DNA from: Candidatus Saccharimonadota bacterium
Lineage (GTDB): Bacteria; Patescibacteriota; Gracilibacteria; BD1-5; UBA2023
Assembly (NCBI GenBank): GCA_046350815.1
Contig: JAXLZO010000001.1
Location: 750,001-782,000 of the forward strand
Reading direction: 5' to 3'
DNA: 32,000 nt
The notes under the pieces are model-generated. The model worked only from the letters and a program-made list of their open reading frames with translations, made no database searches and was not told the origin of the DNA. Positions 2-19,714 of the stretch are shown in pieces. A program made the translations under genes and the position numbers. Positions within the stretch are counted from its first letter, which is position 1, and every line of letters starts with the position of its first letter.

Positions 2-1591
2 ATCAAAGCAAAACCGATCAAGATATCACTCTCGAGTCTGAGTCAGCATCAGAAGCAGAAAGATCCAGAACGTCTCTATCAAGAAAAGGAAGAGGCACTT
101 GGAAAGATATTTGGTGAAAGTATTCCTCAGACAGGAGCTGATAGTCAAGATGTTTGATCAGGTGAAATGATTGATGTCATTCAAACAATTCCTCAAGAAA
201 CCAAACTTCTTGAAGAAGGAGGAAAACAGATTGAATCAAGTATTCAAGAAAATCCTATTGTATCTATATCAAGCATACCAGATCAGACTGATCTGGTAAG
301 TAGCTCTCAAGAAGACAGAGCAATACTCAATGAGGTGCCACCTGTAATTGAGTCTCAATTTGTAGAGCCAATATCCACCAAGAATGAGGGTAGTGCAGTG
401 GAAAATATGACGACACAGGAGAGTGTAAATACCCAAGATTTGCAACGTGATACCCTTGAAAATACACTTGAAAGTAGCTCTCAATCATCAAAGGATACGA
501 TTTCAGCAAGCTGAATAGCAATATCTCCACAGGCAGGTTTCTTTCCTGAACTTTCATTTATTACGCCAATCAGTATTTCAAAACCAGAAGATCTTTGATC
601 GGATGTTGCCCCAGGAGAGAATGATACTATCATTTCAAATGAGTCAGTTACTCCTCTGATTGATGCCACCCCACTACAAGAAGCAGTCACTTTGGGTGAA
701 CAAGAGCCTCAGGAGGTGCTATCTCATTCTGAAGTTGCTCTTACAGAGATAGCTTCACCAATCGAGTGATCACAAAGCAGTTCTTCTGATGAGGTTTCAG
801 TGCTCTGAGAGGCTGCAGTGATGCCTCAAGATATCAGTATATCTGAAACAGTAGAATGATCATCAGTTTTGGCTGAAGTTTCTCCACCAAATGAAACACC
901 TCCACAGGAGAGTGGTGCTCAAAATCTCCATGAAACAAATAAAAAATCGTTGCGTTGGGTGATATCTGGAGTTGTGGTTATGTTGCTTACACTTGGTTGA
1001 GGAGGTTTTTATCTCTGGAATAATCAATCACAGATATCTGTCCCAACGCCGAATAATGAAACAGATGAAACAATTATAAATATTGCTGATCTTCCGAAAA
1101 ATCCTTCGTCAACATGAACTCTTACCGGTGCTATCATGACATGATCGATATTAACTGGTACAACGATTGAAACAACAGGATCAACGATATTGATAGGAAC
1201 ATGAATGATGAATACAAGCTCTGGCGTGCTTATTGGATCGGGACTGATGTCTTCAAGTGGTGGTATCTCTATGAGCGGAGTGACATCTACCTGAGTACTC
1301 GTACAAAGTGGCACTATCAAGCCAACTCCCTCATCAGGAAGTGGTACAGTTGGAAACTCTTGATCTCTTGTATCAAATACCTCAACCGGAAAAGTTATCA
1401 CATCAACATGATCAAATACCTCGACTGGAAAAACTGTAACCGGAACTGGATCAAGCACCTCAAAGCCAAATACGAGTACTGGATCGACCGTGATAACACC
1501 AGCTGTGACTCCTCCAAAATATATTGAAGGTCGAGATTATAGAGTATACGGTGGTGGGTACAAACTTATACGAACAGTAAAAAAGAAATAA
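2..1591 (+). CDS. 5'-truncated acidic Ser/Thr/Gly-rich membrane-anchored protein, function unknown
   Basis: Frame 2 is open from the window edge to TAA 1589-1591 when its 13 in-frame TGA are read as Gly. One hydrophobic segment (KKSLRWVISGVVVMLLTLGGGGFYLW, ~950-1017) separates an acidic N-part from a Gly/Ser/Thr tail. Track ORF 167..514 is a fragment of it; 1201..1527(+) and 1024..1458(-) are off-frame shadows. Confidence 0.6.
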
Positions 1592-1595
1592 ATTT

Positions 1596-1877
1596 ATGAT
1601 GTTCTTTTGGAAAAAACGTACCAGCTTGAGTCAGCAGTGGTGTGACCGATTTATCTAATTTTTTGGAATGATCTGATCAATCATGACGCTACCGTAAATA
1701 CAAAAAATATGGTATGAGACGAATATAGATAGGGTTTCAATTATCTCATGGTCTACCTATCTCATTACCAGTTGTGTTTGGCCATTGTATGGCATATTCC
1801 ATAATATCTTTACGAACTTTCTTTGAATTCTTGCAAATGGTATGATTGTTATCGGAATATTGGTGCATGGATCATAA
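1596..1877 (+). pseudogene. SemiSWEET/PQ-loop-like small membrane protein interrupted by two in-frame TAA
   Basis: Frame 3 from ATG 1596 to TAA TAA 1875-1880 reads MMFFWKKRTSLSQQWCDRFI*FFGMIGSIMTLP*IQKIWYETNIDRVSIISWSTYLITSCVWPLYGIFHNIFTNFLGILANGMIVIGILVHGS. The TLP[Q]I..K, W..YG and ..AN.. spacing matches 3-TM SemiSWEET proteins. TAA occurs at 1656-1658 and exactly at the Q of the PQ motif (1695-1697). Confidence 0.45.
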
Positions 1878-1886
1878 TAATCCTTA

Positions 1887-2639
1887 GGGTCTAAACCAGT
1901 TACGGGTTATATTGACGAAGTAACTTTAGCACTTCCTTATAAATATCTTTTCATTGAATACGACAATTATATCTGAATTCAGATTCTTTCAAAAAATAGT
2001 AGAAGTAGACTTTCTTGATTCCATTGAATTGAGAGAGTCTTCTTTTGGTATAACTCCAAAATGACTCTATTCAATTAATGTGTTGAGTTCATCTTGCAAA
2101 TTCATTTGCTCCGTGATGAACACGGTAGTGTTTCTCATATCCAATATCTACAAGCCCATCATAAGCTCACCATCCATCACTGTTAATCTCAGACTCTTCT
2201 ATACGAAGTTTTCATCGAATGATTGGCACGAGAGTCCTTGCTTTTACATCAGGAACTATCTCAGTATATACTTTTCAGTTTCTTTTGAGTAAACCAAAGA
2301 CTATTGTCTTCATACCAGCTCACCTTCCTCTCTTTCATCGGACTCTTGTTGGTCAGAAGTAACTCTCATCTATCTCAACATTTCCAGTCCATATTTCATT
2401 CTTTTCTCTCTCACAGAGAAAGGCTATCGCCTTTCTGATATATCTATACCAATCCTGTGTTGTTTTTGGATTGAGACCTGTTAATACCGCTGTTTTATCT
2501 GAAGTAAAATCCAGAGAAAAATATTTCACAATTTCTCTTATTTTTGCATCTCAAATTCGTGATTTTTTCCTATAGGTAGTTTTACTGATCATAGAGCCAA
2601 GTTTATGGGATAATTTATCCTGTCAACTGGTTTAGACCC
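1887..2639 (-). mobile_element. compact IS1595-family (ISXO2-like) insertion sequence
   Basis: Perfect 15-bp terminal inverted repeats GGGTCTAAACCAGTT (1887-1901) and AACTGGTTTAGACCC (2625-2639) enclose a single transposase ORF. A 7-bp direct repeat ATCCTTA (1880-1886 and 2640-2646) flanks the element as a target-site duplication. Confidence 0.85.
1900..2592 (-). CDS. IS1595-family DDE transposase (ISXO2-like domain), 230 aa
   Basis: With TGA=Gly the frame is open from ATG 2592 to TAA 1900-1902. Translation contains VEIDESYFGPTRVRGKRGRGAGMKTIVFGLLKRNGKVYTEIVPDV...IIRGKL...DGWGAYDGLVDIGYEKHYRVHHGANEFARGTQHINGIESFWSYTKRRL, the hallmark ISXO2-like motifs. All 10 in-frame TGA fall on glycines conserved in that family. 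Confidence 0.9.
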
Positions 2640-2687
2640 ATCCTTATTATTGTTGTTGATAGGGTTGGGACTTAAATCAAGATGATT

Positions 2688-2732
2688 AGTACTTAAAAAA
2701 CATATTCCCTGTGAATATGTTTTTTAAGTACT
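2688..2732 (-). terminator. intrinsic terminator hairpin downstream of the CHAP gene (bidirectional shape)
   Basis: Perfect 19-bp inverted repeat AGTACTTAAAAAACATATT / AATATGTTTTTTAAGTACT with a 7-nt loop and A/T runs inside both arms. It lies 24 nt past the CHAP stop. Confidence 0.6.
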
Positions 2733-2755
2733 TTAGAGTGATACGATATCTAATT

Positions 2756-3328
2756 TTAGAGGAGCGGTTCTCTTTCATTGTTTTTAAGGCGATTGATTTT
2801 ATTGGTGCTGTCTGCGACGAGAGGGTCTCCTTGTAAATTGGGTGGTGTGTTGAGGGGTAACTCTTCTCGACTTGCAACGGTACTTGTTTTGCTGTAGCGA
2901 TACCATCCGAGGCATTTTCCTCTTCATTTGGTCGCTGAATACCCAATACTTCTTAAGACAATAGCATTATCTCAGAGCCCGTCTCATGCACCTGTTCACC
3001 CATTCTGATCGATTACGTTGAGTCGAGTCAGATTTGATTTTTCATCGACAATAGCCACATGACCGTATGGATTGGTTGGGGTTGCATCGAAGAAGAGAAT
3101 ATCACCGACTCTCGGTATCGAGAGGAGGCTGTTATTAATTTTGGTCCATCATGACCCAAATGGAGATCCGGATTTCCATGCATTAATAGCTGATCCTGAG
3201 AATCAAAGAAGCGGTATATTCAAGAGTTCACAATATTTCTTTACCCATGATACGCACTGATAGCCAAATTGGGGATCTTCTTGATACCTGGATCCGATCC
3301 ATTGAGAGAGAATTTCTTTGTGAGTCAT
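2756..3328 (-). CDS. CHAP-domain peptidoglycan hydrolase (amidase/endopeptidase), 190 aa
   Basis: ATG 3328 to TAA 2756-2758, checked triplet by triplet. Catalytic-type motifs FGYQCVSWVKKY (Cys) and GDILFFDATPTNPYGHVAIV (His), then NVIDQNGGTG, are typical of CHAP domains. Several in-frame TGA read as Gly. Confidence 0.8.
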
Positions 3329-3989: not shown

Positions 3990-5000
3990 TTACTCCAGTA
4001 ATTGGTTGTATGTCTTGATGATAATTGGGAAAAACTCATCATGCACATAGAGGAGAAGATAATCAAGAAACTTGTCTCTCTCCGTTGGTGTCATTGTTTG
4101 ATTACCCCAACCATTTTTGAGCACATCTTGAAGATTATATTCCCCAACCACTTCTAATCTTCTATCGATAAATTTCTGAAAGAGTCGCAAGAAATCTTGG
4201 TCGATTTCTTCATGTCCTATGCACTCACCATTATGCATTTGGATACATCGAAAGACTTCCTGAAATCTTTCCACCATTTGATTATCTGGTATCCGCACAC
4301 CACTGTTGTCACTTTGGAAGAATTCCTGAATCTCTTTTCATTCATCCAATATAGATTCTTTGATACGATCCGAGTGAATAATGGGAAATCATGCGAGCAT
4401 ACCACTTGGGTCAATATCAACAAATGGGAAAAACTGAGCAAGTCATGGTCAGAGTATTTCTATACTCGAATAGAGTTGGCTTCCCCAATATTTTTCTGCC
4501 GTATCGACGAAATTTGCATAACTGATTGGGTGATATGCACTATCATTCTGATCTTGCAAAGATGGATGAGGTCGATCTGAATGAAACTCCCTCATATCTG
4601 GATCGAGTATTTTGTGTCCAATACGGATTACATTGGTAAATCAAACAATATCTGGACTCTCCCGATCTTGATAGACTACATAATCATGTTCAAAGAGTCA
4701 TCATTTCGCTTGAAACTCACGTATAATTGGATGCTCTTTGAGAATAGTATAGACCCGTCCGCAGATGATATGGCAATAACCTCTCGGATATTGTCTCGGA
4801 TCCATAGTGCTATATTGGGGAAGAGGGGAGTCTTGATATTCATAGCACCCATGAAAGATATCCTCAGAAAAACTCGGATCTATGAGAGTGTGTATCGCTT
4901 CAATCGTTGCCTGAACAAGCTCCTGTTCACCTTTTGGGAGCAGTATATCTTCATAGAGTGTTCGTTGATCAGAAGATATACTTCCATTGAGGGATTTCAT
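3990..5000 (-). CDS. hypothetical protein, 336 aa
   Basis: Track ORFs 4701..5000 and 3990..4298 lie in one frame. Every triplet in between was checked and the only stops are TGA, including a TGA-TGA doublet at 4698-4703 (reads ..AKGGLFEH..). No recognisable domain. Confidence 0.65.
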
Positions 5001-5075
5001 CTTTTATAGGGTCAATTTCTCCAAGCATACCATATTTTTCAGACGATTGCAAAATACAACCACGTTACTCCTTAT

Positions 5076-6158
5076 CTATTTCCCCGATTTCGTCCTATTG
5101 CAATTCTTACAGAGCATCTGACAGTTTTCAGCCGTTGTTTTCCCTCCCTCGTGCCACGGAGTGATATGATCTGCTTCCATCTCTTGGATTGCAAACTGGA
5201 GGCGACACTTCGTACAGATACCTTGCTGCCGCTCATAGGATTCTCTCTTTTGTTTCTCAGTGAATGCGCGGATACTCAGATATTTCTCATTCCGAGTCAG
5301 GACATATTCGTAGATACCGGACTTTTTCGTGACATCTTCATCTTGCATAAGTTTTGTGATTTCTCCCTCGAGTTCTGCTGCATCGTATTCCTGATCTTTG
5401 AACTGATTATAGAGTATTCACCATCCACCACCTTTCATTTCTCTTCGATAGTTTGGGAACACGGCCCGTACCCAATTGATCACACTCTGAAAGTAGAGCC
5501 AGAGCTCATTCGCATTCGGTTTATGCTGATGAGTCGCCATATATTCCTCGATAGTATCATCACTGATCCATGAGAGAGCTGTCTCAAGATATTCTTGGCG
5601 TATGGGAGATCCATTCAGATAGTCACTTCCGATATTATAGGTAGGACATCATGTCTTGCTGAAGTACCGCTTTGCATCCGTGAGCCATGTTCCCGTATAG
5701 ACAGCATTTCGTAGCTCTTGTTCGGTGAGTTTCTCACCTGCAATATTGATCGTCTTGAACCAATCAAGCTTCTCACGATCATTCCCCTCGCAGATATAGA
5801 CCATGAGTTTATAGCTCAGGATCTGTTCTCTCTCCACATCGGTGAGATTGTGAAAATACTGAAAATCAAGAGAGAAATTCCCACTCACATATTCACAGAT
5901 ACTGATCGTTCGCTGCTGTCCATCGAGTACCTCATAGGTTCCATCTTCATTTTTCACCCAATACATTACATTGAGCGGGAAATCCTTACGAACTGTCTCA
6001 ATCACAGAGTTTCTCTGCTTATCTTTATAGACGAACTCTCGCTGGTACTTCGGGCGAATATTGAGTGCTCCACTATACCCGATCACACCATCTTCTTGAT
6101 TGTTGATATATCCGGCTGCAACTTCACGGATCATGATTTCTTGGAGTTTGATTTTCAT
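5076..6158 (-). CDS. fused DUF262 (ParB/GmrSD-N-like, DGQQR motif) - HNH endonuclease, 360 aa
   Basis: Track ORFs 5649..6158 and 5076..5348 are joined in frame through TGA codons, with the intervening triplets checked. The N-terminus has FPLNVMYWV...YEVLDGQQRTISI (DUF262). The C-terminus has CTKCRLQF...ADHITPWHEGGKTTAENCQMLCKNCNRTK (HNH with CxxC pairs). Stop is TAG 5076-5078. Confidence 0.85.
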
Positions 6159-6167
6159 AGGGGAGAG

Positions 6168-7127
6168 TTAAGAATGTAATTTTTTATTTTGGATAATAAT
6201 GCGAAAATATGGACATTTTCCATTAATACTTAAATCTTTCTCATCGTTGCCTTTGCGAAACTTGATAATCTCAAATTGATCTGGATTAAATTTATCAAGA
6301 AAAGTAATTGGAACACCTATGTGACCTGTATAATCTATTGGAATATCTTTTGTTTTATCTACGTTGATTGCATCGTAGTTGTCATACTTTGGATATTCAC
6401 TTTTATTTTCTCTATAAACTTTATAGAGGATTAAATCTTCATGTCGTTCCTTGTAATCGATATTCGTGAACCAACGAACTCATTTTACTCGAATGTATTT
6501 ATTTCACTCCGCATCGACTCTGCTTCAGGCAGCGAGAAGTGGGTAGTGTTCTGGAACTCTGAATTCTCGATCCCCACTATGAATGCTTTTTCAGAACCAA
6601 ACTCGATTTTCCTGAATGAGTTTGAAAAAATCTTTATACGTTATCGCGTTTTGGTTTCCGATGATGATGAATTTTTTCTCATATTCGAAGAGTTGAGCGA
6701 TATATTCACGAAAGAGTGAAAATGGGGGATTGGTGATGACAATATCTGACTCTTTTAGTATCTCGATACATTCAGGACTTCGGAAGTCACCGTTTTGTTT
6801 GAGTGGAGTTTTCACCGTATCGAGCTTGTTGATTTTTCCATCGCCATTGATATCGGCGATAATCTCGAGCTTGTACGATGGTTTGTCATAGTCAAAATGA
6901 GTCGATACGAGCTTTTTAAGTCCGAGAAATTCAAAATTCTCAGAGAGATATCTCCAGAAGTGACTTTCTTCAGGATCATCACAATTGCAGAAGATAACCT
7001 TGTCTTTAAGATGCTCTTTATAGTTTTGTATCTCTTTCTCGATATCAGATATCTGTGTGTAGAACTCATCATTCTTTCCTCTGATAGCATTATGTAAATT
7101 CCTATTTCAGGACTTCTTTTCGGACAT
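6168..7127 (-). CDS. N6-adenine DNA methyltransferase, EcoRI-methylase-like family, 319 aa
   Basis: ATG 7127 to TAA 6168-6170 in one frame with TGA=Gly. Motifs NDEFYTQISDIEKEI, VIFCNCDDPEESHFW, DIVITNPPFSLFREYI (NPPF catalytic motif), KKFIIIGNQNAITYK and GVPITFLDKFNPDQFEII. The stop lies 9 nt before the DUF262-HNH start. Track ORF 6812..7177(-) is an off-frame shadow. Confidence 0.88.
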
Positions 7128-12497: not shown

Positions 12498-12571
12498 TGG
12501 CTGGGATACTAGGATTCGAACCTAGGATGCCGGATTCAGAGTCCGGAGCCTTACCGCTTGGCGATATCCCA
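12498..12571 (-). tRNA. tRNA-Gln (anticodon CUG), CCA encoded
   Basis: The reverse complement is TGGGATATCGCCAAGCGGTAAGGCTCCGGACTCTGAATCCGGCATCCTAGGTTCGAATCCTAGTATCCCAGCCA. It has a 7-bp acceptor stem, anticodon stem CCGGA/TCCGG with loop CTCTGAA, and T-arm GGTTCGAATCC. It closely parallels E. coli tRNA-Gln. Confidence 0.95.
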
Positions 12572-16296: not shown

Positions 16297-16998
16297 TTAT
16301 GGTCGTATGGAGCAAAACTCTACAAATGGGCTTGCTGCATTTCGTAATTGTATCAGATCATCGTGAGAGAAACTCTTTCCATAAAAATGAGGATCGAGAA
16401 TTTTACCAGTTCGAAAATTTTGTAAGATATATTTTTTCGCTCAATGTATGTTTTGCGCAATCACTGCTATATCATCAGGAGTATGTACTCATTGAATAAC
16501 AGTGGTTCGAAACTCATATTCCATCTGCGATCTTATGATGAGGCTAATACTCTCACTGTATTGCTTGATCGGTATGCTGACATTGGTTATTTTACCATAT
16601 TGTTCAAACGTATGTTTGATATCCATAGCAATATAGTCCACGAGTTTTTCCTGTATGAGATACCTGAGCATGGTAGAATTACTCCCATTGGTATCAAGCT
16701 TGATGAGGAGTCAGAGGTCTTTAATTTTTTTCGCAAATTCTGGTAGATCTTTGTGAAGGGTTGGTTCACCACCACAAATAACAACCCCGTCAATAAAACT
16801 CTTTCGTTCCTCAAGAAATGCAAAAAAGTTTTCTTCGGGAATAAGATCATCCATCCTCTTTTCTACTTCGTTCGGAAGAACAAATTCTGGATTATGACAA
16901 AAACCACAACGAAGATTACAACCAAGAGTAAAAATAATGGTTGCAACTTTGCCTGGATAATCTAAGAGCGTTGTCTTCTTGATTCAGGATATGAGCAT
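16297..16998 (-). CDS. nrdG: anaerobic ribonucleoside-triphosphate reductase activating protein (radical SAM), 233 aa
   Basis: ATG 16998 to TAA 16297-16299, all triplets checked. Motifs TLGCNLRCGFCHNPE (CxxxCxxC), VVICGGEPT and KLDTNG. Four TGA read as Gly. The start lies 1 nt after the nrdD-frame stop. Confidence 0.9.
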
Positions 16999-16999
16999 A

Positions 17000-17215
17000 T
17001 TAGATGGTAGAACTTTGTTCTTTTATTGGTCCAAATTTTTGAATGAACTGAGAATTGAAGCTCACTGATTCACAGAAATAATTGCGTGAATAGAATTCTG
17101 ATTTCTTGCCATTATTAAATTGGCTCACAGGGCGATAGTATCACATAACTCGGGTGTATATTTCACATTTTGTGCGAGTTATTTCTTGTCATTGATCGTT
17201 GATAAATGGTTGCAT
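17000..17215 (-). CDS. glycyl-radical C-terminal module of NrdD, separated from the main ORF by an in-frame TAA (71 aa if started at ATG 17215)
   Basis: Same frame as nrdD. MQPFINDQGQEITRTKCEIYTRVM[G]YYRPVSQFNNGKKSEFYSR carries the class III RNR glycyl-radical motif RV.GY.RPV. Ends at TAA 17000-17002. Whether it is translated separately, by readthrough, or not at all cannot be told from sequence. Confidence 0.45.
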
Positions 17216-17242
17216 AGGAGTGAAAGTAAAAAAGAATAACTC

Positions 17243-19423
17243 TTATTGAGATGATTTGTTTGTATAGTGGGACCGTAGCTCATTGTCAAAAAGTACATCA
17301 CCAGTATATCAGATTTCTTCATCGCATCGTGGGCAATAGTCATGTTCTCATATAAGATATCCATGTTTTGGGCAGACTGAGAATGTGGGAGTGATGGTTA
17401 TATACGGGAGTTGATACTGGGTAATAACTTTTTTGACGAGCATTTTGCATGCCTGAGCATCAGATATACGTTCACCCATATAGAGATGTAATACAGTACC
17501 GCCTGTATATTTGCACTGCAATTCATTTTGATATTCCAATGCCTCGAAGGCATCATTTGTAAATTCAACTGGAAGTTGTGTGGAATTGGTATAGTAAGGA
17601 TTCTCTCTCGTTCCAGATTGAATAATATCAGGAAGTTGTTTCTGGTCCTCTTTGGCAAATCGATAGGTAGTTCCTTCAGCTGGAGTTGCTTCAAGATTAT
17701 ACATATTCCCTGTTTCTTCTTGGTATTCTTTGAGGATTCATCGCATTTCATCGAGGATTTCAAGAGCGAATCCCTTTCACCAATTGGTGGATATATCCTC
17801 TTTCCCACTTGTGAAATTCAAGATTGCTTCATTCATTCCATTAATACCAATCGTGGAAAAGTGATTGCGAAATGATTTGAGGTATCGATATGTATATGGA
17901 TAGAGTCATGATTTGAGCCACTCCGTGAGTACCTTTCGTTTGATCTCAAGAGAAATCTTTGCAAAATTCATCAGATGTCGAATTTGTTTTTTAAATTCCT
18001 CAGCATTTCCTTTATGGTTGTACCCGATTCTTGCCAGATTGAGAGTAACAACTCCGATTGATCCTGTCATTTCTGCAGATCAGAAAAGTCCATTTCCACG
18101 CTTGAGAAGTTCTCTGAGGTCAAGCTGGAGACGACAACACATCGATCGCACCGCTCATGGTTGATATGCTTCTTGATTTCGTATTCTGGTGATGCTACCG
18201 TCCGATGCTCGTAGCGTCTTGTATTGTGATCCAATGAAATTTTGAAAATAGGGGAGTCCATATTTTGCAGTCATTTCGAAGATCCTATCGACTTCTGGAT
18301 TATCCCAATCAAAATCTTCAGTAATATTGTAGGTTGGTATCGGAAAAGTGAAGGCTCTTCATTTGTAATCCCCTGCGAGATAGACTTCAATAAGAGCTCG
18401 GTTGATAATCATTCGCTCCCAATCGAGTTCTCCATAAGTTCGACAATACTCTCATCGTTCGTACCCACCTAGATGAAGTGCTTTATTTTTAAGGTCTTCA
18501 GGACATGTCCAGTCAAGTGTGATATTGGTGAATGGAGTTTGAGTTCCCCATCGAGATGGGACATTGAGTCCGAAGATAAAATTTTGCATTTGCTGAAGAA
18601 CATATGCATACGTTTTTTCATCGAGGAATTTTTTTTCATCCTCGCTATTTTTAAAATGAAGATGATATGTTCCATTATCGTTGGCAAGTTCTGTTCGATA
18701 TTTATGGACAAAAGGAGCAAGATATGTATCAAATGATGAAAAAGCTTGTGCTCCAGCCCATTCGTTCTGGAGGGTTCCGAGAAAATTGATCATCTGATTG
18801 ATAGCTGCTTGAAGGTTTTTGGGTGGCGCTGACTCTATTCTATTCGGCATACCATTGAATCCTTCCTCTAGGAGTTGTCTCAAGCTCCATCCAGCACAAT
18901 AACCAGAAAACATATCAAGATCATGAATATGATAATCCGCATTTCGGTGAGCATTTCATACCTCCTCAGGATAGATATGTGATAGCCAATAATTTGCAGT
19001 GATTTTTCCAGAAGTATTGAGTATGAGGCCACCAAGTGAATATCCAGAGTTTGCGTTTGCATTTACTCGCCAGTCGGATTTTTCAAGGTATTCCTCCATT
19101 GTTTTTCCAACTTCTACAACCACGTTTTTGGAGGATCGAGCTTCCGACCGATTTTTACGATAAATGATGAATGCTTTAGCAAGAGTATCATGTCCATTTT
19201 TGATGAGTATTTCTTCTATCGTATCTTGAATCACTTCAATATCGGGAATTTGCATATTGCACGATTGCTCCATATGCTTGATGACTTGATCGGTCAAAGA
19301 AGTGACATGAGAAAAATCATCCCCTCCAACTGATTGGATCGTTTGCATAATTGCATGTTCGATTTTGGTTCGATCAAATGTCTCGATCGAACCATTCCTT
19401 TTACGCACTTTATAGATAGCCAT
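17243..19423 (-). CDS. nrdD: anaerobic (class III) ribonucleoside-triphosphate reductase, large body with ATP-cone, 726 aa up to the in-frame TAA
   Basis: Track ORFs 18956..19423, 18452..18913 and 17348..17704 share one frame. All triplets 17705-18451 were translated and contain only TGA. Motifs FTFPIPTYNITEDFDWD, RSMCCRLQLDLRELLKRGNGLF[TGA]SAEMTGSIGVVTLN and TPTFSVCPKHGYLIGEHDYCPRC. The frame meets TAA at 17243-17245. Confidence 0.85.
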
Positions 19424-19663
19424 ATTGTCTCAAAAGATCACAAAATAAAAACAGACATAAGTATGAATTTTTCATTCAGCTTCGCCTGTTTTTACTGTTT
19501 ATTGCATTAATAAAAACAGAGTTGAAATCGAATGAAAAATTCGAAAACATTTGTATACCCTGTTTTTAAGAATTGCTATCTTCTTAAAAAACGATTGATG
19601 ATGTATATGACATGTGCTGGCTTGAATTACACGCAATTCAAAGCATGATTTCCACTCGTCATA

Positions 19664-19714
19664 TGTTATGTGAGATAACAATATTAAAATATATATGATT
19701 TGAGAAGATTGCAA
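19664..19714 (-). promoter_or_regulatory. putative nrdD promoter with overlapping palindromic operator
   Basis: On the minus strand TTGCAA (19709-19714), 17 nt, then TATTTT (19686-19691). It is followed at once by the inverted repeat TGTTAT-N5-ATAACA (19664-19680). Confidence 0.3.

What the first reader, a model, noticed from the sequence alone, without database searches (positions are those of the whole stretch)
17000..17245. In-frame TAA separates the NrdD catalytic body from its glycyl-radical tail
Seen: the nrdD frame is intact for 726 codons (ATP-cone, catalytic core, CPKHGY...CPRC zinc motif), meets a single TAA at 17243-17245, and then continues in the same frame for 80 codons to TAA 17000-17002. 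That tail encodes KCEIYTRVMGYYRPVSQFNNGKKSEF, the glycyl-radical motif without which the enzyme is inactive. I checked every triplet: there is no other TAA or TAG and no frameshift, and nrdG immediately downstream is intact. An ATG at 17215 could start a 71-aa stand-alone radical-domain peptide. Inference, three options: (i) a very recent nonsense mutation or a sequencing or population variant (for example CAA to TAA); (ii) programmed readthrough; (iii) a genuinely split glycyl-radical enzyme whose radical domain is a separate polypeptide, conceptually like the GrcA/YfiD spare part for pyruvate formate-lyase. Option (iii) would be new for class III RNR. The TAA lies in a linker that I believe is variable in length among NrdD proteins.
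Basis: partly seen in the sequence, partly recalled or inferred. Interest (0 to 1): 0.7.

Follow-up and report, generated by a model that had tools for sequence, protein, structure and literature searches.

The report
Naturally split anaerobic ribonucleotide reductase
The stop codon is real and conserved: in this bacterium, and in many others from Gracilibacteria to Pseudomonas, Ralstonia and Cupriavidus, the anaerobic enzyme that makes DNA precursors is encoded as a large catalytic protein plus a separate peptide of about 60 residues carrying the essential glycyl-radical site, an arrangement I could not find described in the literature.

Summary
nrdD (minus strand, ATG 19423) runs 726 codons to TAA 17243-17245. 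The same frame continues 80 codons to TAA 17000-17002 and contains the TRVMGYYRPV glycyl-radical motif.

It is not a recent mutation, an artefact or a readthrough site. All 120 closest NrdD homologues stop in the same linker and lack the motif. Hundreds of stand-alone 50-120 aa proteins carry it. In sister contigs (about 96% nt identity) the body ends TAA TAA and a 1-nt indel puts the tail in another frame. The tail still evolves at dN/dS about 0.07.

Among 83 informative related loci, 75 are split, with the tail in frame 0, +1 or +2 at near-random frequency (p 0.23). In GC-rich genomes 47 of 53 tails have their own Shine-Dalgarno plus ATG. Six loci are fused.

The split occurs in complete or cultured genomes: Ca. 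Absconditicoccus praedator, Pseudomonas, Ralstonia solanacearum, Thiobacillus denitrificans and Cupriavidus necator pHG1.

Conclusion: a genuine three-gene operon, nrdD body, radical-domain peptide and nrdG. Databases already list the small ORFs. I found no paper describing a split class III RNR, and a 2026 review states that stand-alone radical-domain proteins are known only for formate lyases.

The parts
17243..19423 (-). nrdD 'body' CDS: 726 codons plus its own TAA stop (17243-17245). It holds the ATP-cone, the catalytic barrel and the zinc ribbon, but no glycyl-radical motif.
   Evidence: It is identical to NCBI protein P0001, named 'ribonucleoside triphosphate reductase'. NF006126 scores 1024.7 bits against a cut-off of 548. 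The top 36 Foldseek hits of the AF2 model are all class III RNR structures.
19145..19411 (-). ATP-cone domain (aa 5-93)
   Evidence: Pfam PF03477, E 1.1e-17.
18134..18139 (-). Finger-loop cysteine pair C429-C430 within SMCCR, the site of the thiyl radical that the glycyl radical must reach.
   Evidence: Invariant in the alignment of 32 bodies. Its role follows from established NrdD biochemistry; the double-Cys motif is discussed in PMC9669993.
17324..17374 (-). Zinc-ribbon motif C684-P-K-H687 ... C697-P-R-C700. It stays on the body.
   Evidence: C684, H687, C697 and C700 are invariant. The motif aligns with the T. maritima NrdD C..H...CPVC site. The CPxH form is present in all 76 split loci parsed.
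17246..17323 (-). C-terminal extension of the body after the zinc ribbon (aa 701-726). G705 and R717 are invariant, G708 and T721 nearly so. The end is variable in length.
   Evidence: for the conserved residues. Bodies of relatives end 703-746 aa. Extension length has a median of 34.5 aa in code-25 genomes and 16 aa in standard-code genomes.
17216..17242 (-). 27-nt T-rich intergenic spacer between the body stop and the tail ATG.
   Evidence: It is the most variable stretch between the window and its sisters, with substitutions plus a 1-nt indel. No structure is predicted (z +1.25) and there is no Rfam match.
17000..17215 (-). Stand-alone glycyl-radical-domain gene: 71 codons plus TAA, starting at ATG 17213-17215.
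   Evidence: The exact protein is NCBI MFO0763977.1. There are 465 homologous clusters, and the best 120 are all 50-121 aa. The start Met and the MxxF(I/V)(D/N)xxGxE N-terminus are conserved. dN/dS is about 0.07 against sisters.
17075..17176 (-). Conserved core of the tail, R14-F47: RTKCEIYTRVMGYYRPVSQFNNGKKSEFYSRNYF.
   Evidence: 17 invariant columns in the alignment of 48 tails. The core matches positions 531-562 of the Pfam NRDD profile and residues 611-648 of T. maritima NrdD.
17141..17143 (-). Codon of the radical glycine (tail G25). It is a TGA codon.
   Evidence: Sequence. The sisters also have TGA here. The AF2 tail model puts G25 at the tip of a beta hairpin, strands 20-23 and 26-29.
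16297..16998 (-). nrdG activase (233 aa; CxxxCxxC radical-SAM motif). Its ATG starts 1 nt after the tail stop.
   Evidence: TIGR02495 NrdG2 scores 201.3 bits, cut-off 131.

Best explanation
The TAA at 17243-17245 is the true stop of nrdD. The locus is a three-gene operon. It comprises nrdD-body (726 aa: ATP-cone, catalytic barrel with the Cys finger loop, zinc ribbon), a separately translated 71-aa glycyl-radical-domain protein, and nrdG. This is an ancient, conserved gene fission at the linker between the zinc ribbon and the radical loop. It is the prevailing state in the NF006126-type branch of class III ribonucleotide reductases.

**Shown here:** the two ORFs are separate cistrons, both are conserved under purifying selection, and the arrangement recurs across phyla.

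**Inferred:**
- The small protein binds non-covalently in the position the C-terminal domain occupies in fused NrdD, with its Gly hairpin inserted into the barrel next to C429/C430.
- NrdG installs the radical on the small protein.
- The holoenzyme is therefore a body-plus-tail heteromer.

**Speculative rationale:** after oxygen cleaves the backbone at the radical glycine, only a 6-8 kDa peptide has to be replaced, not an 80-kDa enzyme.
For: **Recurrence**
- 0 of the 120 closest bodies (67-100% identity, 703-746 aa) carry the Gly motif.
- All 239 listed small proteins from two tail searches (48-121 aa) carry it. The searches found 465 and 1624 clusters.

**Sister contigs**
- Contigs from four independent samples have TAA TAA plus a frame-shifting 1-nt indel in the spacer.

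**Selection**
- The tail shows 10-11 synonymous against 4 non-synonymous changes, dN/dS about 0.07.
- Codons 1-48 show 8 synonymous and 0 non-synonymous changes, and the two control frames show the reverse pattern.
- The last 1268 nt of the body give dN/dS 0.04.

**Independent translation**
- Tail frames relative to the body stop are 18/29/28 (chi-square p 0.23).
- 47 of 53 GC-rich split loci have an SD-preceded in-frame ATG, against a 12% background.
- Several starts overlap the body's 3' end by 4-32 nt.

**Complete or cultured genomes with gene calls**
- Ca. Absconditicoccus praedator: 723 aa, then 80 aa, then nrdG.
- SR1 RAAC1.
- Ralstonia solanacearum: 685 aa and 58 aa with an ATGA overlap, then nrdG.
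- Cupriavidus necator H16 pHG1: 676 aa and 66 aa, then nrdG.
- RefSeq entries exist for Pseudomonas, Ralstonia and T. denitrificans tails.

**In vivo function of a split member**
- The pHG1 nrdDG system is required for anaerobic growth and denitrification in C. necator H16. This is Siedow et al. 1999 as cited in PMC2864759. From my own memory of that abstract, not verified here, the reported 76.2-kDa NrdD fits the 676-aa body.

**The tail keeps every element of the canonical radical domain**
- It matches the Pfam NRDD C-terminus and residues 611-648 of T. maritima NrdD.
Against: - No protein-level evidence was available. No proteomics, Ribo-seq, EPR or complex data were found.
- The tail-alone AF2 model is only moderately confident (pLDDT 67, pTM 0.24).
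- In low-GC genomes, including this window, no SD precedes the tail ATG (3 of 24). The nrdD and nrdG starts in the window lack one too.
- One relative (Holosporaceae, L023) has a body with no tail within 3.7 kb downstream.
- The 'cheap replacement after oxygen damage' rationale is untested.
Confidence: 0.85

Rival explanations
1. Programmed stop-codon readthrough, or another recoding event such as bypassing or frameshifting, produces a single 807-aa NrdD.
For: In this window, and in L002, the tail is in frame with the body and separated from it by a single stop.
Against: - Sisters at about 96% identity have two tandem stops and a 1-nt indel that puts the tail out of frame.
- Frames are spread over all three registers in 75 split loci.
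- Gaps reach about 300 nt and contain many stops.
- Tails in GC-rich genomes have their own SD plus ATG, and some overlap the body.
- There is no stimulatory RNA structure (z +1.25), no Rfam element and no suppressor tRNA in the window.
Confidence: 0.03
2. The stop is a recent nonsense mutation, a population variant or an assembly error, leaving a pseudogene in decay.
For: None beyond the bare presence of the stop.
Against: - The same split is found in all 120 nearest homologues.
- It is also found in contigs from four independent samples.
- It is present in complete genomes.
- dN/dS is 0.04 for the body and 0.07 for the tail.
- nrdG is intact.
Confidence: 0.01
3. The two pieces are rejoined after transcription or translation, by an intron, a split intein or trans-splicing.
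For: RNR genes are frequent hosts of introns and inteins. T4 nrdD carries a group I intron (PMC3653736).
Against: - The spacer is only 27 nt here and ranges from an overlap to about 300 nt elsewhere. It is unconserved.
- There is no Rfam hit.
- Neither the body end nor the tail start carries intein blocks. The Pfam and NCBIfam hits are NRDD only.
- The tail is only 50-80 aa in total.
Confidence: 0.02
4. This is a functional sub-hypothesis of the best explanation, not an exclusive rival. The peptide is a consumable, exchangeable radical cofactor (a 'fuse') rather than a permanently bound subunit. NrdG activates it free in solution, it docks into the body, and it is discarded and replaced after oxygen cleavage.
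For: - Many hosts of the split form are facultative anaerobes or denitrifiers exposed to fluctuating oxygen. Examples are Pseudomonas, Stutzerimonas, Ralstonia, Cupriavidus, Achromobacter and Thiobacillus denitrificans.
- There is a precedent in YfiD/GrcA, which PFL-AE activates and which then replaces the damaged PFL domain (PMC13450708).
- The fission point has been kept open for a very long time despite occasional re-fusions.
Against: - This is purely inferential and no turnover data exist.
- Six fused relatives live in similar settings.
- Translational coupling (ATGA overlaps) suggests roughly stoichiometric synthesis rather than an excess of peptide.
Confidence: 0.35
5. The body works without the tail, using another radical source or serving a non-RNR role, and the tail ORF is a conserved relic with a different role.
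For: One relative (L023) has a body with no nearby tail.
Against: - The tail keeps every invariant residue of the NrdD radical loop, including the Gly.
- It is almost always sandwiched between nrdD and nrdG.
- The body keeps the finger-loop cysteines and the zinc ribbon, whose known role is to position that loop.
Confidence: 0.03

Closest known systems
Canonical single-chain class III RNR (NrdD of phage T4, E. coli, Thermotoga maritima, Prevotella copri, Streptococcus thermophilus) with NrdG
   Same: - It shares the ATP-cone, the barrel, the finger-loop Cys, the zinc ribbon and the RVxGY radical loop followed by the FNxGKxxE segment.
- nrdG is adjacent.
- The body model matches all solved NrdD structures at Foldseek E 1e-15 to 1e-23.
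- The tail aligns with the last 38 residues of T. maritima NrdD.
   Different: In the canonical enzymes the radical loop follows the zinc ribbon after about 11-16 residues on the same chain. Here the chain ends after the ribbon, and the loop lies on a separate protein of 50-80 aa with its own start codon.
GrcA/YfiD (E. coli) and Y06I (phage T4), autonomous glycyl-radical 'spare part' proteins for pyruvate formate-lyase
   Same: Both are small stand-alone proteins that carry a glycyl-radical loop homologous to the C-terminal domain of a large glycyl-radical enzyme. Each is presumably activated by the cognate activase and inserted into the large protein.
   Different: - GrcA belongs to the PFL family (Pfam Gly_radical), whereas the tail here matches only NRDD.
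- PFL keeps its own radical domain and GrcA is a backup encoded elsewhere. Here the body has no radical domain, and the peptide is the only one, encoded between nrdD and nrdG.
- The 2026 review PMC13450708 states that formate lyases are the only GRE class with identified spare-part proteins.
Split class II RNR NrdJa + NrdJb (Pseudomonas aeruginosa; Thermus phage)
   Same: It is an RNR whose C-terminal functional domain is encoded by a separate adjacent gene, while related enzymes are fused (PMC5704485 and PMC9669993).
   Different: - It is a different RNR class that depends on B12.
- The detached piece is a 150-220 aa Cys-rich reductant-shuttling domain, not the radical-bearing cofactor.
Genes-in-pieces NrdA of Aeromonas phage Aeh1, and the fragmented nrdD of phage phiAS4
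   Same: These are RNR catalytic subunits encoded in two or more pieces. Aeh1 NrdA retains function (PMC3653736).
   Different: - Those are recent, lineage-specific disruptions. Aeh1 nrdA was split by a homing-endonuclease insertion. phiAS4 nrdD is broken at other positions, and the uninterrupted nrdD of phage 25 is 97% identical to it.
- The split here is ancient, lies at one fixed domain boundary, has no inserted mobile element, and is shared across phyla.

Membership tests
Class III ribonucleotide reductase, NF006126 (PRK08270)-type NrdD | The whole protein scores above the curated cut-off of the family model | tested here: met
   The body scores 1024.7 bits against a cut-off of 548. The model is 684 positions long. 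The body covers it to about position 651 and the tail matches positions 649-682, so body plus tail together equal one family-model length.
Class III ribonucleotide reductase, NF006126 (PRK08270)-type NrdD | NrdD fold: ten-stranded alpha/beta barrel with a finger loop | tested here: met
   The AF2 body model has pLDDT 70 and pTM 0.67. The best 36 Foldseek PDB hits are all class III RNRs, including 9d3x, 8p2c, 4u3e and 1h7b. The finger loop itself (aa 430-454) is modelled with low confidence.
Class III ribonucleotide reductase, NF006126 (PRK08270)-type NrdD | Conserved finger-loop cysteine(s) that form the thiyl radical | tested here: met
   SMCCR with C429 and C430 is invariant in 32 bodies.
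Class III ribonucleotide reductase, NF006126 (PRK08270)-type NrdD | C-terminal zinc ribbon | tested here: met
   C684-x2-H687 ... C697-x2-C700 is invariant and aligns with the T. maritima site. Metal binding itself was not tested.
Class III ribonucleotide reductase, NF006126 (PRK08270)-type NrdD | Glycyl-radical motif RVxGY on the same polypeptide as the barrel | tested here: not met
   The motif is absent from the 726-aa body and from all 120 nearest bodies. It is present on the 71-aa product of the next ORF. The system as a whole has it; the single chain does not.
Class III ribonucleotide reductase, NF006126 (PRK08270)-type NrdD | A cognate radical-SAM activase, NrdG, encoded alongside | tested here: met
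   TIGR02495 NrdG2 scores 201 bits against a cut-off of 131. The gene starts 1 nt after the tail stop.
Class III ribonucleotide reductase, NF006126 (PRK08270)-type NrdD | Glycyl-radical formation and NTP reduction | not testable with these tools
   This needs anaerobic biochemistry and EPR.
GrcA/YfiD autonomous glycyl-radical cofactor (spare part for PFL) | Homology to the PFL C-terminal domain (Pfam Gly_radical PF01228; RVSGY motif) | tested here: not met
   At E up to 0.01 the tail hits only PF13597 NRDD in Pfam, and only NrdD models in NCBIfam.
GrcA/YfiD autonomous glycyl-radical cofactor (spare part for PFL) | It coexists with a full-length enzyme that has its own radical domain, which is what makes it a backup | tested here: not met
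   The partner body lacks any radical domain, so the peptide is the sole radical domain.
GrcA/YfiD autonomous glycyl-radical cofactor (spare part for PFL) | A small stand-alone protein carrying the activatable Gly at the tip of a hairpin | tested here: met
   The ORF is 71 aa. G25 lies between strands 20-23 and 26-29 in the AF2 model, which has moderate confidence. The Gly column is nearly invariant in 48 tails; the exceptions are W, which I read as TGA translated under another genetic code by the gene callers.
Programmed stop-codon readthrough or recoding site | The downstream ORF is kept in a fixed frame relative to the upstream ORF across relatives | tested here: not met
   Frames are 18/29/28 over 75 split loci (p 0.23). 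Close sisters differ from the window by a frame-shifting indel.
Programmed stop-codon readthrough or recoding site | A conserved stop-codon context or stimulatory RNA element | tested here: not met
   The stop moves by one codon between the window (CAA TAA) and its sisters (TAA TAA). The body stop is TAA, TAG or TGA among relatives. Folding of the region gives z +1.25.

The most novel reading that the evidence does not exclude
A large, phylogenetically broad branch of class III ribonucleotide reductases is an obligate two-polypeptide glycyl-radical enzyme. It spans code-25 Gracilibacteria/Absconditabacteria and other CPR lineages through to Pseudomonas, Ralstonia, Cupriavidus, Achromobacter and Thiobacillus. 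The radical cofactor sits on a free 6-8 kDa subunit supplied in trans. This would be the first such case outside the PFL/GrcA repair system, it has so far gone unrecognised in the literature, and the peptide may act as a cheap replaceable part after oxygen damage.
Probability: 0.55. Interest if true: 0.85.

Novelty: new variant of a known kind. Interest (0 to 1): 0.75.

Why it matters
Glycyl-radical enzymes are taught as single chains whose C-terminal domain carries the radical. The only known stand-alone radical domain is GrcA/YfiD, a repair part for pyruvate formate-lyase. A 2026 review lists whether other glycyl-radical enzymes have such proteins as an open question (PMC13450708).

A natural, widespread NrdD whose only radical domain is a separate peptide answers that question in an unexpected way. 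It also provides a ready-made system for several problems:
- how an activase recognises a radical domain;
- how the domain enters and leaves the barrel;
- whether radical domains can be exchanged after oxygen damage.

It matters practically as well.
- Surveys that filter RNR sequences by length, or that require the Gly motif, will misclassify this family as truncated or inactive.
- The small ORF is variously named 'hypothetical protein', 'oxidoreductase' or 'anaerobic ribonucleoside-triphosphate reductase'.
- Genetic work on nrdDG in Cupriavidus, Ralstonia or Pseudomonas should take a third gene into account.
- Several hosts are genetically tractable, so the idea can be tested directly.

Tried and rejected
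- **AF2 of the conceptual body-plus-tail chain.** I submitted it with an MSA of bodies.
- **Combined MAFFT alignment of bodies and tails (A3).** The short tails were scattered over the body, so I discarded it.
- **Tail-alone AF2 model.** It gave pLDDT 67 and pTM 0.24. Its Foldseek search against the PDB gave nothing below E = 5, which is uninformative.
- **The look-up of encoding contigs for the exact 726-aa body.** It is not on record. The first look-up for P0041 failed and was repeated.
- **Two key papers are not held.** Wei et al. 2014 (N. bacilliformis NrdD, PMC4246965) and Siedow et al. 1999 (A. eutrophus nrdDG, PMC93980) could not be read. I could not check whether either noticed a separate ORF.
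- **Nine literature searches** used varied wording (split, separate gene or polypeptide, stand-alone, small ORF, truncated, autonomous glycyl radical, locus tags). None found a description of a split NrdD radical domain.
- **Other scans of the window.** The Rfam scan of 16800-19700, the RNA fold of the junction and the tRNA scan all found nothing relevant.
- **T4 gene-60-like bypass.** I considered take-off at CAA before the TAA and landing at a downstream CAA. I rejected it because the sisters have TCT TAA TAA and a different frame.
- **Pseudomonas aeruginosa.** I could not establish whether it carries the split. The listed Pseudomonas tails are from the fluorescens, chlororaphis, putida and stutzeri groups.
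Full report
**1. The observation**

Reading the minus strand with table 25, nrdD starts at ATG 19423. It runs 726 sense codons, 10 of them in-frame TGA, to TAA 17245..17243. The same frame then continues for 80 codons (2 TGA) to TAA 17002..17000.

Pfam places an ATP-cone at aa 5-93 and the NRDD domain at aa 123-702 in the body, covering profile positions 2-531 of 562. The 80-aa continuation matches the remaining positions 531-562.

The CPKH...CPRC motif is at aa 684-700, and the motif TRVMGYYRPV lies in the continuation. An ATG at 17215 opens a 71-aa ORF.

nrdG follows 1 nt after the second TAA (16297-16998, 233 aa). It scores 201 bits on TIGR02495 NrdG2.

One addition: the radical glycine itself (17141-17143) is a TGA codon. 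That is a neat internal proof that TGA means Gly here.

**2. Is it an accident of this genome?**

No.

A search with the conceptual 807-aa product returned 120 best hits at 67-100% identity. They come from Gracilibacteria, Absconditabacteria/SR1 and 'Altimarinota' and are 703-746 aa long. All cover only about 90% of the query. All of them end in the same linker after CPxCDxE(I/L)GYxGxxFDxxxRxxYT. None contains the glycyl motif.

The reciprocal search with the 71-aa ORF found 465 clusters. The best 120 are all stand-alone proteins of 50-121 aa (median 64), and all carry the motif.

The exact 726-aa and 71-aa products are already GenBank entries on one 1.28-Mb Gracilibacteria contig. The 71-aa product is MFO0763977.1, named 'anaerobic ribonucleoside-triphosphate reductase'.

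**3.

Four contigs from independent samples carry the same locus at about 96% nucleotide identity. They differ in two informative ways:
- The body ends TCT TAA TAA, where the window has TCT CAA TAA. The sisters therefore have a double stop, one codon earlier.
- The 27-nt spacer carries a 1-nt insertion that puts the tail in frame +1.

Readthrough cannot yield a fused protein in the sisters.

The tail ORF is nevertheless conserved. There are 10-11 synonymous against 4 non-synonymous differences, giving dN/dS of about 0.07. The first 48 codons show 8 synonymous and 0 non-synonymous changes. The two other frames show the opposite pattern. The last 1268 nt of the body give dN/dS 0.04.

Both genes are therefore under purifying selection, and the spacer is not.

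**4. The split is a property of the whole family, not of code-25 bacteria**

A scan of GTDB representative genomes gave 80 loci. I added loci from complete genomes and plasmids.

| State | Loci | Source |
|---|---|---|
| Informative loci in total | 83 | |
| Split | 75 | |
| Fused | 6 | |
| No tail found | 2 | |

Of the two loci with no tail, one contig ends 138 nt after the body stop. The other, a Holosporaceae MAG, has no tail within 3.7 kb.

Relative to the body stop, the tail lies in frame 0, +1 or +2 in 18, 29 and 28 loci. A chi-square test against uniform gives p 0.23. The body stop is TAA, TAG or TGA. The distance to the tail start ranges from a 32-nt overlap to about 300 nt.

In genomes with at least 50% GC, 47 of 53 split loci have an in-frame ATG upstream of the motif that is preceded by an AGGAG-like Shine-Dalgarno sequence. 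The background for any ATG in the same loci is 12%. Typical examples are Pseudomonas GCAAGGAGCTTCATCC-ATG and Ralstonia CCAAGGAGTCTCCGC-ATGA.

These are the hallmarks of an independently initiated, often translationally coupled cistron.

Gene calls in complete or cultured genomes agree:

| Genome | Body | Tail | Note |
|---|---|---|---|
| Ca. Absconditicoccus praedator | 723 aa | 80 aa | followed by nrdG |
| SR1 RAAC1 | 735 aa | 86 aa | a UDG gene lies before nrdG |
| R. solanacearum megaplasmid | 685 aa | 58 aa | followed by nrdG |
| C. necator H16 pHG1 | 676 aa | 66 aa | followed by nrdG |

RefSeq WP_ entries exist for many Pseudomonas, Stutzerimonas, Ralstonia and Thiobacillus denitrificans tails. 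A Pseudomonas tail retrieves 1624 clusters, and the listed best hits (119 sequences checked) are all 48-91 aa.

**5. Fused relatives**

The six fused forms have 11-41 residues between the CxxC and the radical Gly. In a rough neighbour-joining tree of the bodies they are scattered among split sequences. The domain boundary has therefore been opened or closed several times.

The family model NF006126 is 684 positions long. The body fills it to about position 651 and the tail fills positions 649-682. Body plus tail equals one canonical NrdD.

**6. What the pieces are**

The body:
- It keeps the finger-loop cysteines (SMCCR, C429/C430) and a complete zinc ribbon (C684, H687, C697, C700), all invariant.
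- The ribbon aligns with C..H...CPVC of T. maritima NrdD. In that enzyme the radical loop follows after only about 11 residues.
- An AF2 model of the body (pLDDT 70, pTM 0.67) matches every solved class III RNR and nothing else at comparable scores.

The tail:
- It has a 34-residue core with 17 invariant positions: R14, C17, R22-V23-M24, Y26, R28-P29-V30, F33-N34, K37-K38, E40, Y42, R44 and F47.
- Its N-terminus is moderately conserved as MxxF(I/V)(D/N)xxGxE.
- Alone it is modelled with moderate confidence, with the Gly at the tip of a beta hairpin.

After the zinc ribbon, the body of the code-25 clade has a roughly 35-aa extension with G705 and R717 invariant and G708 and T721 nearly so. This is a candidate docking surface for the tail N-terminus. 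That is my inference.

**7. Mechanism**

Shown here:
- The locus has three cistrons.
- Both NrdD pieces are selected.
- The arrangement is conserved across phyla.

From established knowledge:
- In NrdD the C-terminal Gly loop inserts into the barrel beside the finger-loop Cys.
- NrdG generates the radical using SAM.
- Oxygen cleaves the chain at the radical Gly.

Inferred:
- The small protein occupies that same position non-covalently.
- It is the substrate of NrdG.
- The active enzyme is a body-tail heteromer.

That split members work in vivo is indicated by C. necator H16. Its pHG1 nrdDG system is required for anaerobic growth on nitrate (Siedow et al. 1999, as cited in PMC2864759). That locus is split. 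From my own memory of the 1999 abstract, NrdD was reported as 76.2 kDa, which fits the 676-aa body. I could not read the paper.

A speculative rationale is economy of repair. After oxygen damage only a 6-8 kDa peptide needs replacing. This would suit the many facultative or denitrifying hosts.

**8. Rivals**

- *Readthrough or bypassing* is excluded by the frames, the double stop, the SD-plus-ATG signals, the overlaps and the lack of RNA structure.
- *Pseudogene or sequencing error* is excluded by recurrence and by dN/dS.
- *Intron or intein rejoining* has no support. The spacers are short and unconserved, and there is no Rfam or intein signal.

**9. Comparison with what is known**

| System | How it compares |
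|---|---|
| Fused NrdD | The closest enzyme; the system is a class III RNR in every tested respect except that the radical motif is not on the barrel chain. |
| GrcA/YfiD | The closest concept, but membership fails on homology (NRDD, not PFL-type) and on logic (sole domain, not spare). |
| NrdJa/NrdJb (class II) | The closest evolutionary analogue. |

The held literature gave no description of a split NrdD radical domain in nine searches. [quoted passage not shown]

The limits of that statement matter:
- The library lacks most subscription papers.
- Two key papers could not be read.
- The ORFs themselves are already in the databases under uninformative names.

**10. Verdict**

I rate it a new variant of a known kind.
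- Interest: 0.75.
- Confidence that it is a genuine two-gene split enzyme: 0.85.
- The assembly mechanism and the 'replaceable radical part' idea remain to be tested.

Noticed in passing
window 17141-17143 (minus strand): The catalytically essential radical glycine of the tail (RVM-G-YY) is encoded by TGA, here and in the sister contigs. An invariant Gly written as a reassigned stop codon is direct internal evidence for genetic code 25.
   Followed up: yes
L083-L086 (sister contigs); window 17179-17364 (minus strand): Gene callers using other codes report a spurious 121-aa protein (P0121 and cluster mates) in the sisters. An out-of-frame ORF overlapping the body's 3' end runs straight into the tail there, because of the 1-nt spacer indel. 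In the window the same alternative frame is the 61-aa ORF at 17179-17364.
   Followed up: yes
L087 (SR1 RAAC1, CP006913) 5585-6244: A uracil-DNA-glycosylase-like gene sits between the tail ORF and nrdG. The tail stays next to nrdD rather than next to nrdG when the operon is interrupted.
   Followed up: no
L023 (Holosporaceae MAG, JAIRMS010000013): This NrdD body ends after the zinc ribbon, but no glycyl-radical ORF is found anywhere in the 6-kb locus. A permease-like gene follows instead. The tail may be elsewhere in the genome, or the system may be decaying in this endosymbiont lineage.
   Followed up: partly
L001 (Gracilibacteria STA_21, JAQTLR010000005) 4001-6205: The nrdD body of this Gracilibacteria MAG has no in-frame TGA in 734 codons. 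Other members of the clade have 4-26. It also has a 222-nt spacer full of stops before the tail.
   Followed up: no
L088 (C. necator H16 pHG1) 771-3144; C. metallidurans CH34 (L089): RefSeq gives the gene symbol nrdD to the 66-aa ORF and no symbol to the 676-aa body. The CH34 genome paper lists NrdDG as Rmet_5137 and Rmet_5139, silently skipping Rmet_5138, which by position I presume is the tail ORF. Small tails are elsewhere named 'oxidoreductase' or 'hypothetical protein'.
   Followed up: partly
window 18062-18136 (body aa 430-454): In the AF2 model of the body alone, the finger-loop region that would contact the radical loop is among the least confident segments (pLDDT below 50). This could reflect the missing partner or just the shallow alignment.
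   Followed up: no
tail residue C17 (window 17165-17167) and equivalents in all loci: A cysteine eight residues before the radical Gly (RxxC-E-[IV]-[WY]-TRVMGY) is invariant in split and fused members of this family. T. maritima NrdD has Val at this position. Its role is unknown; redox or metal bridging to the body are possibilities.
   Followed up: partly
window 12498-12571 (minus strand): The only tRNA gene in the window is tRNA-Gln(CTG). No tRNA-Gly(UCA) or suppressor tRNA lies within these 32 kb.
   Followed up: yes
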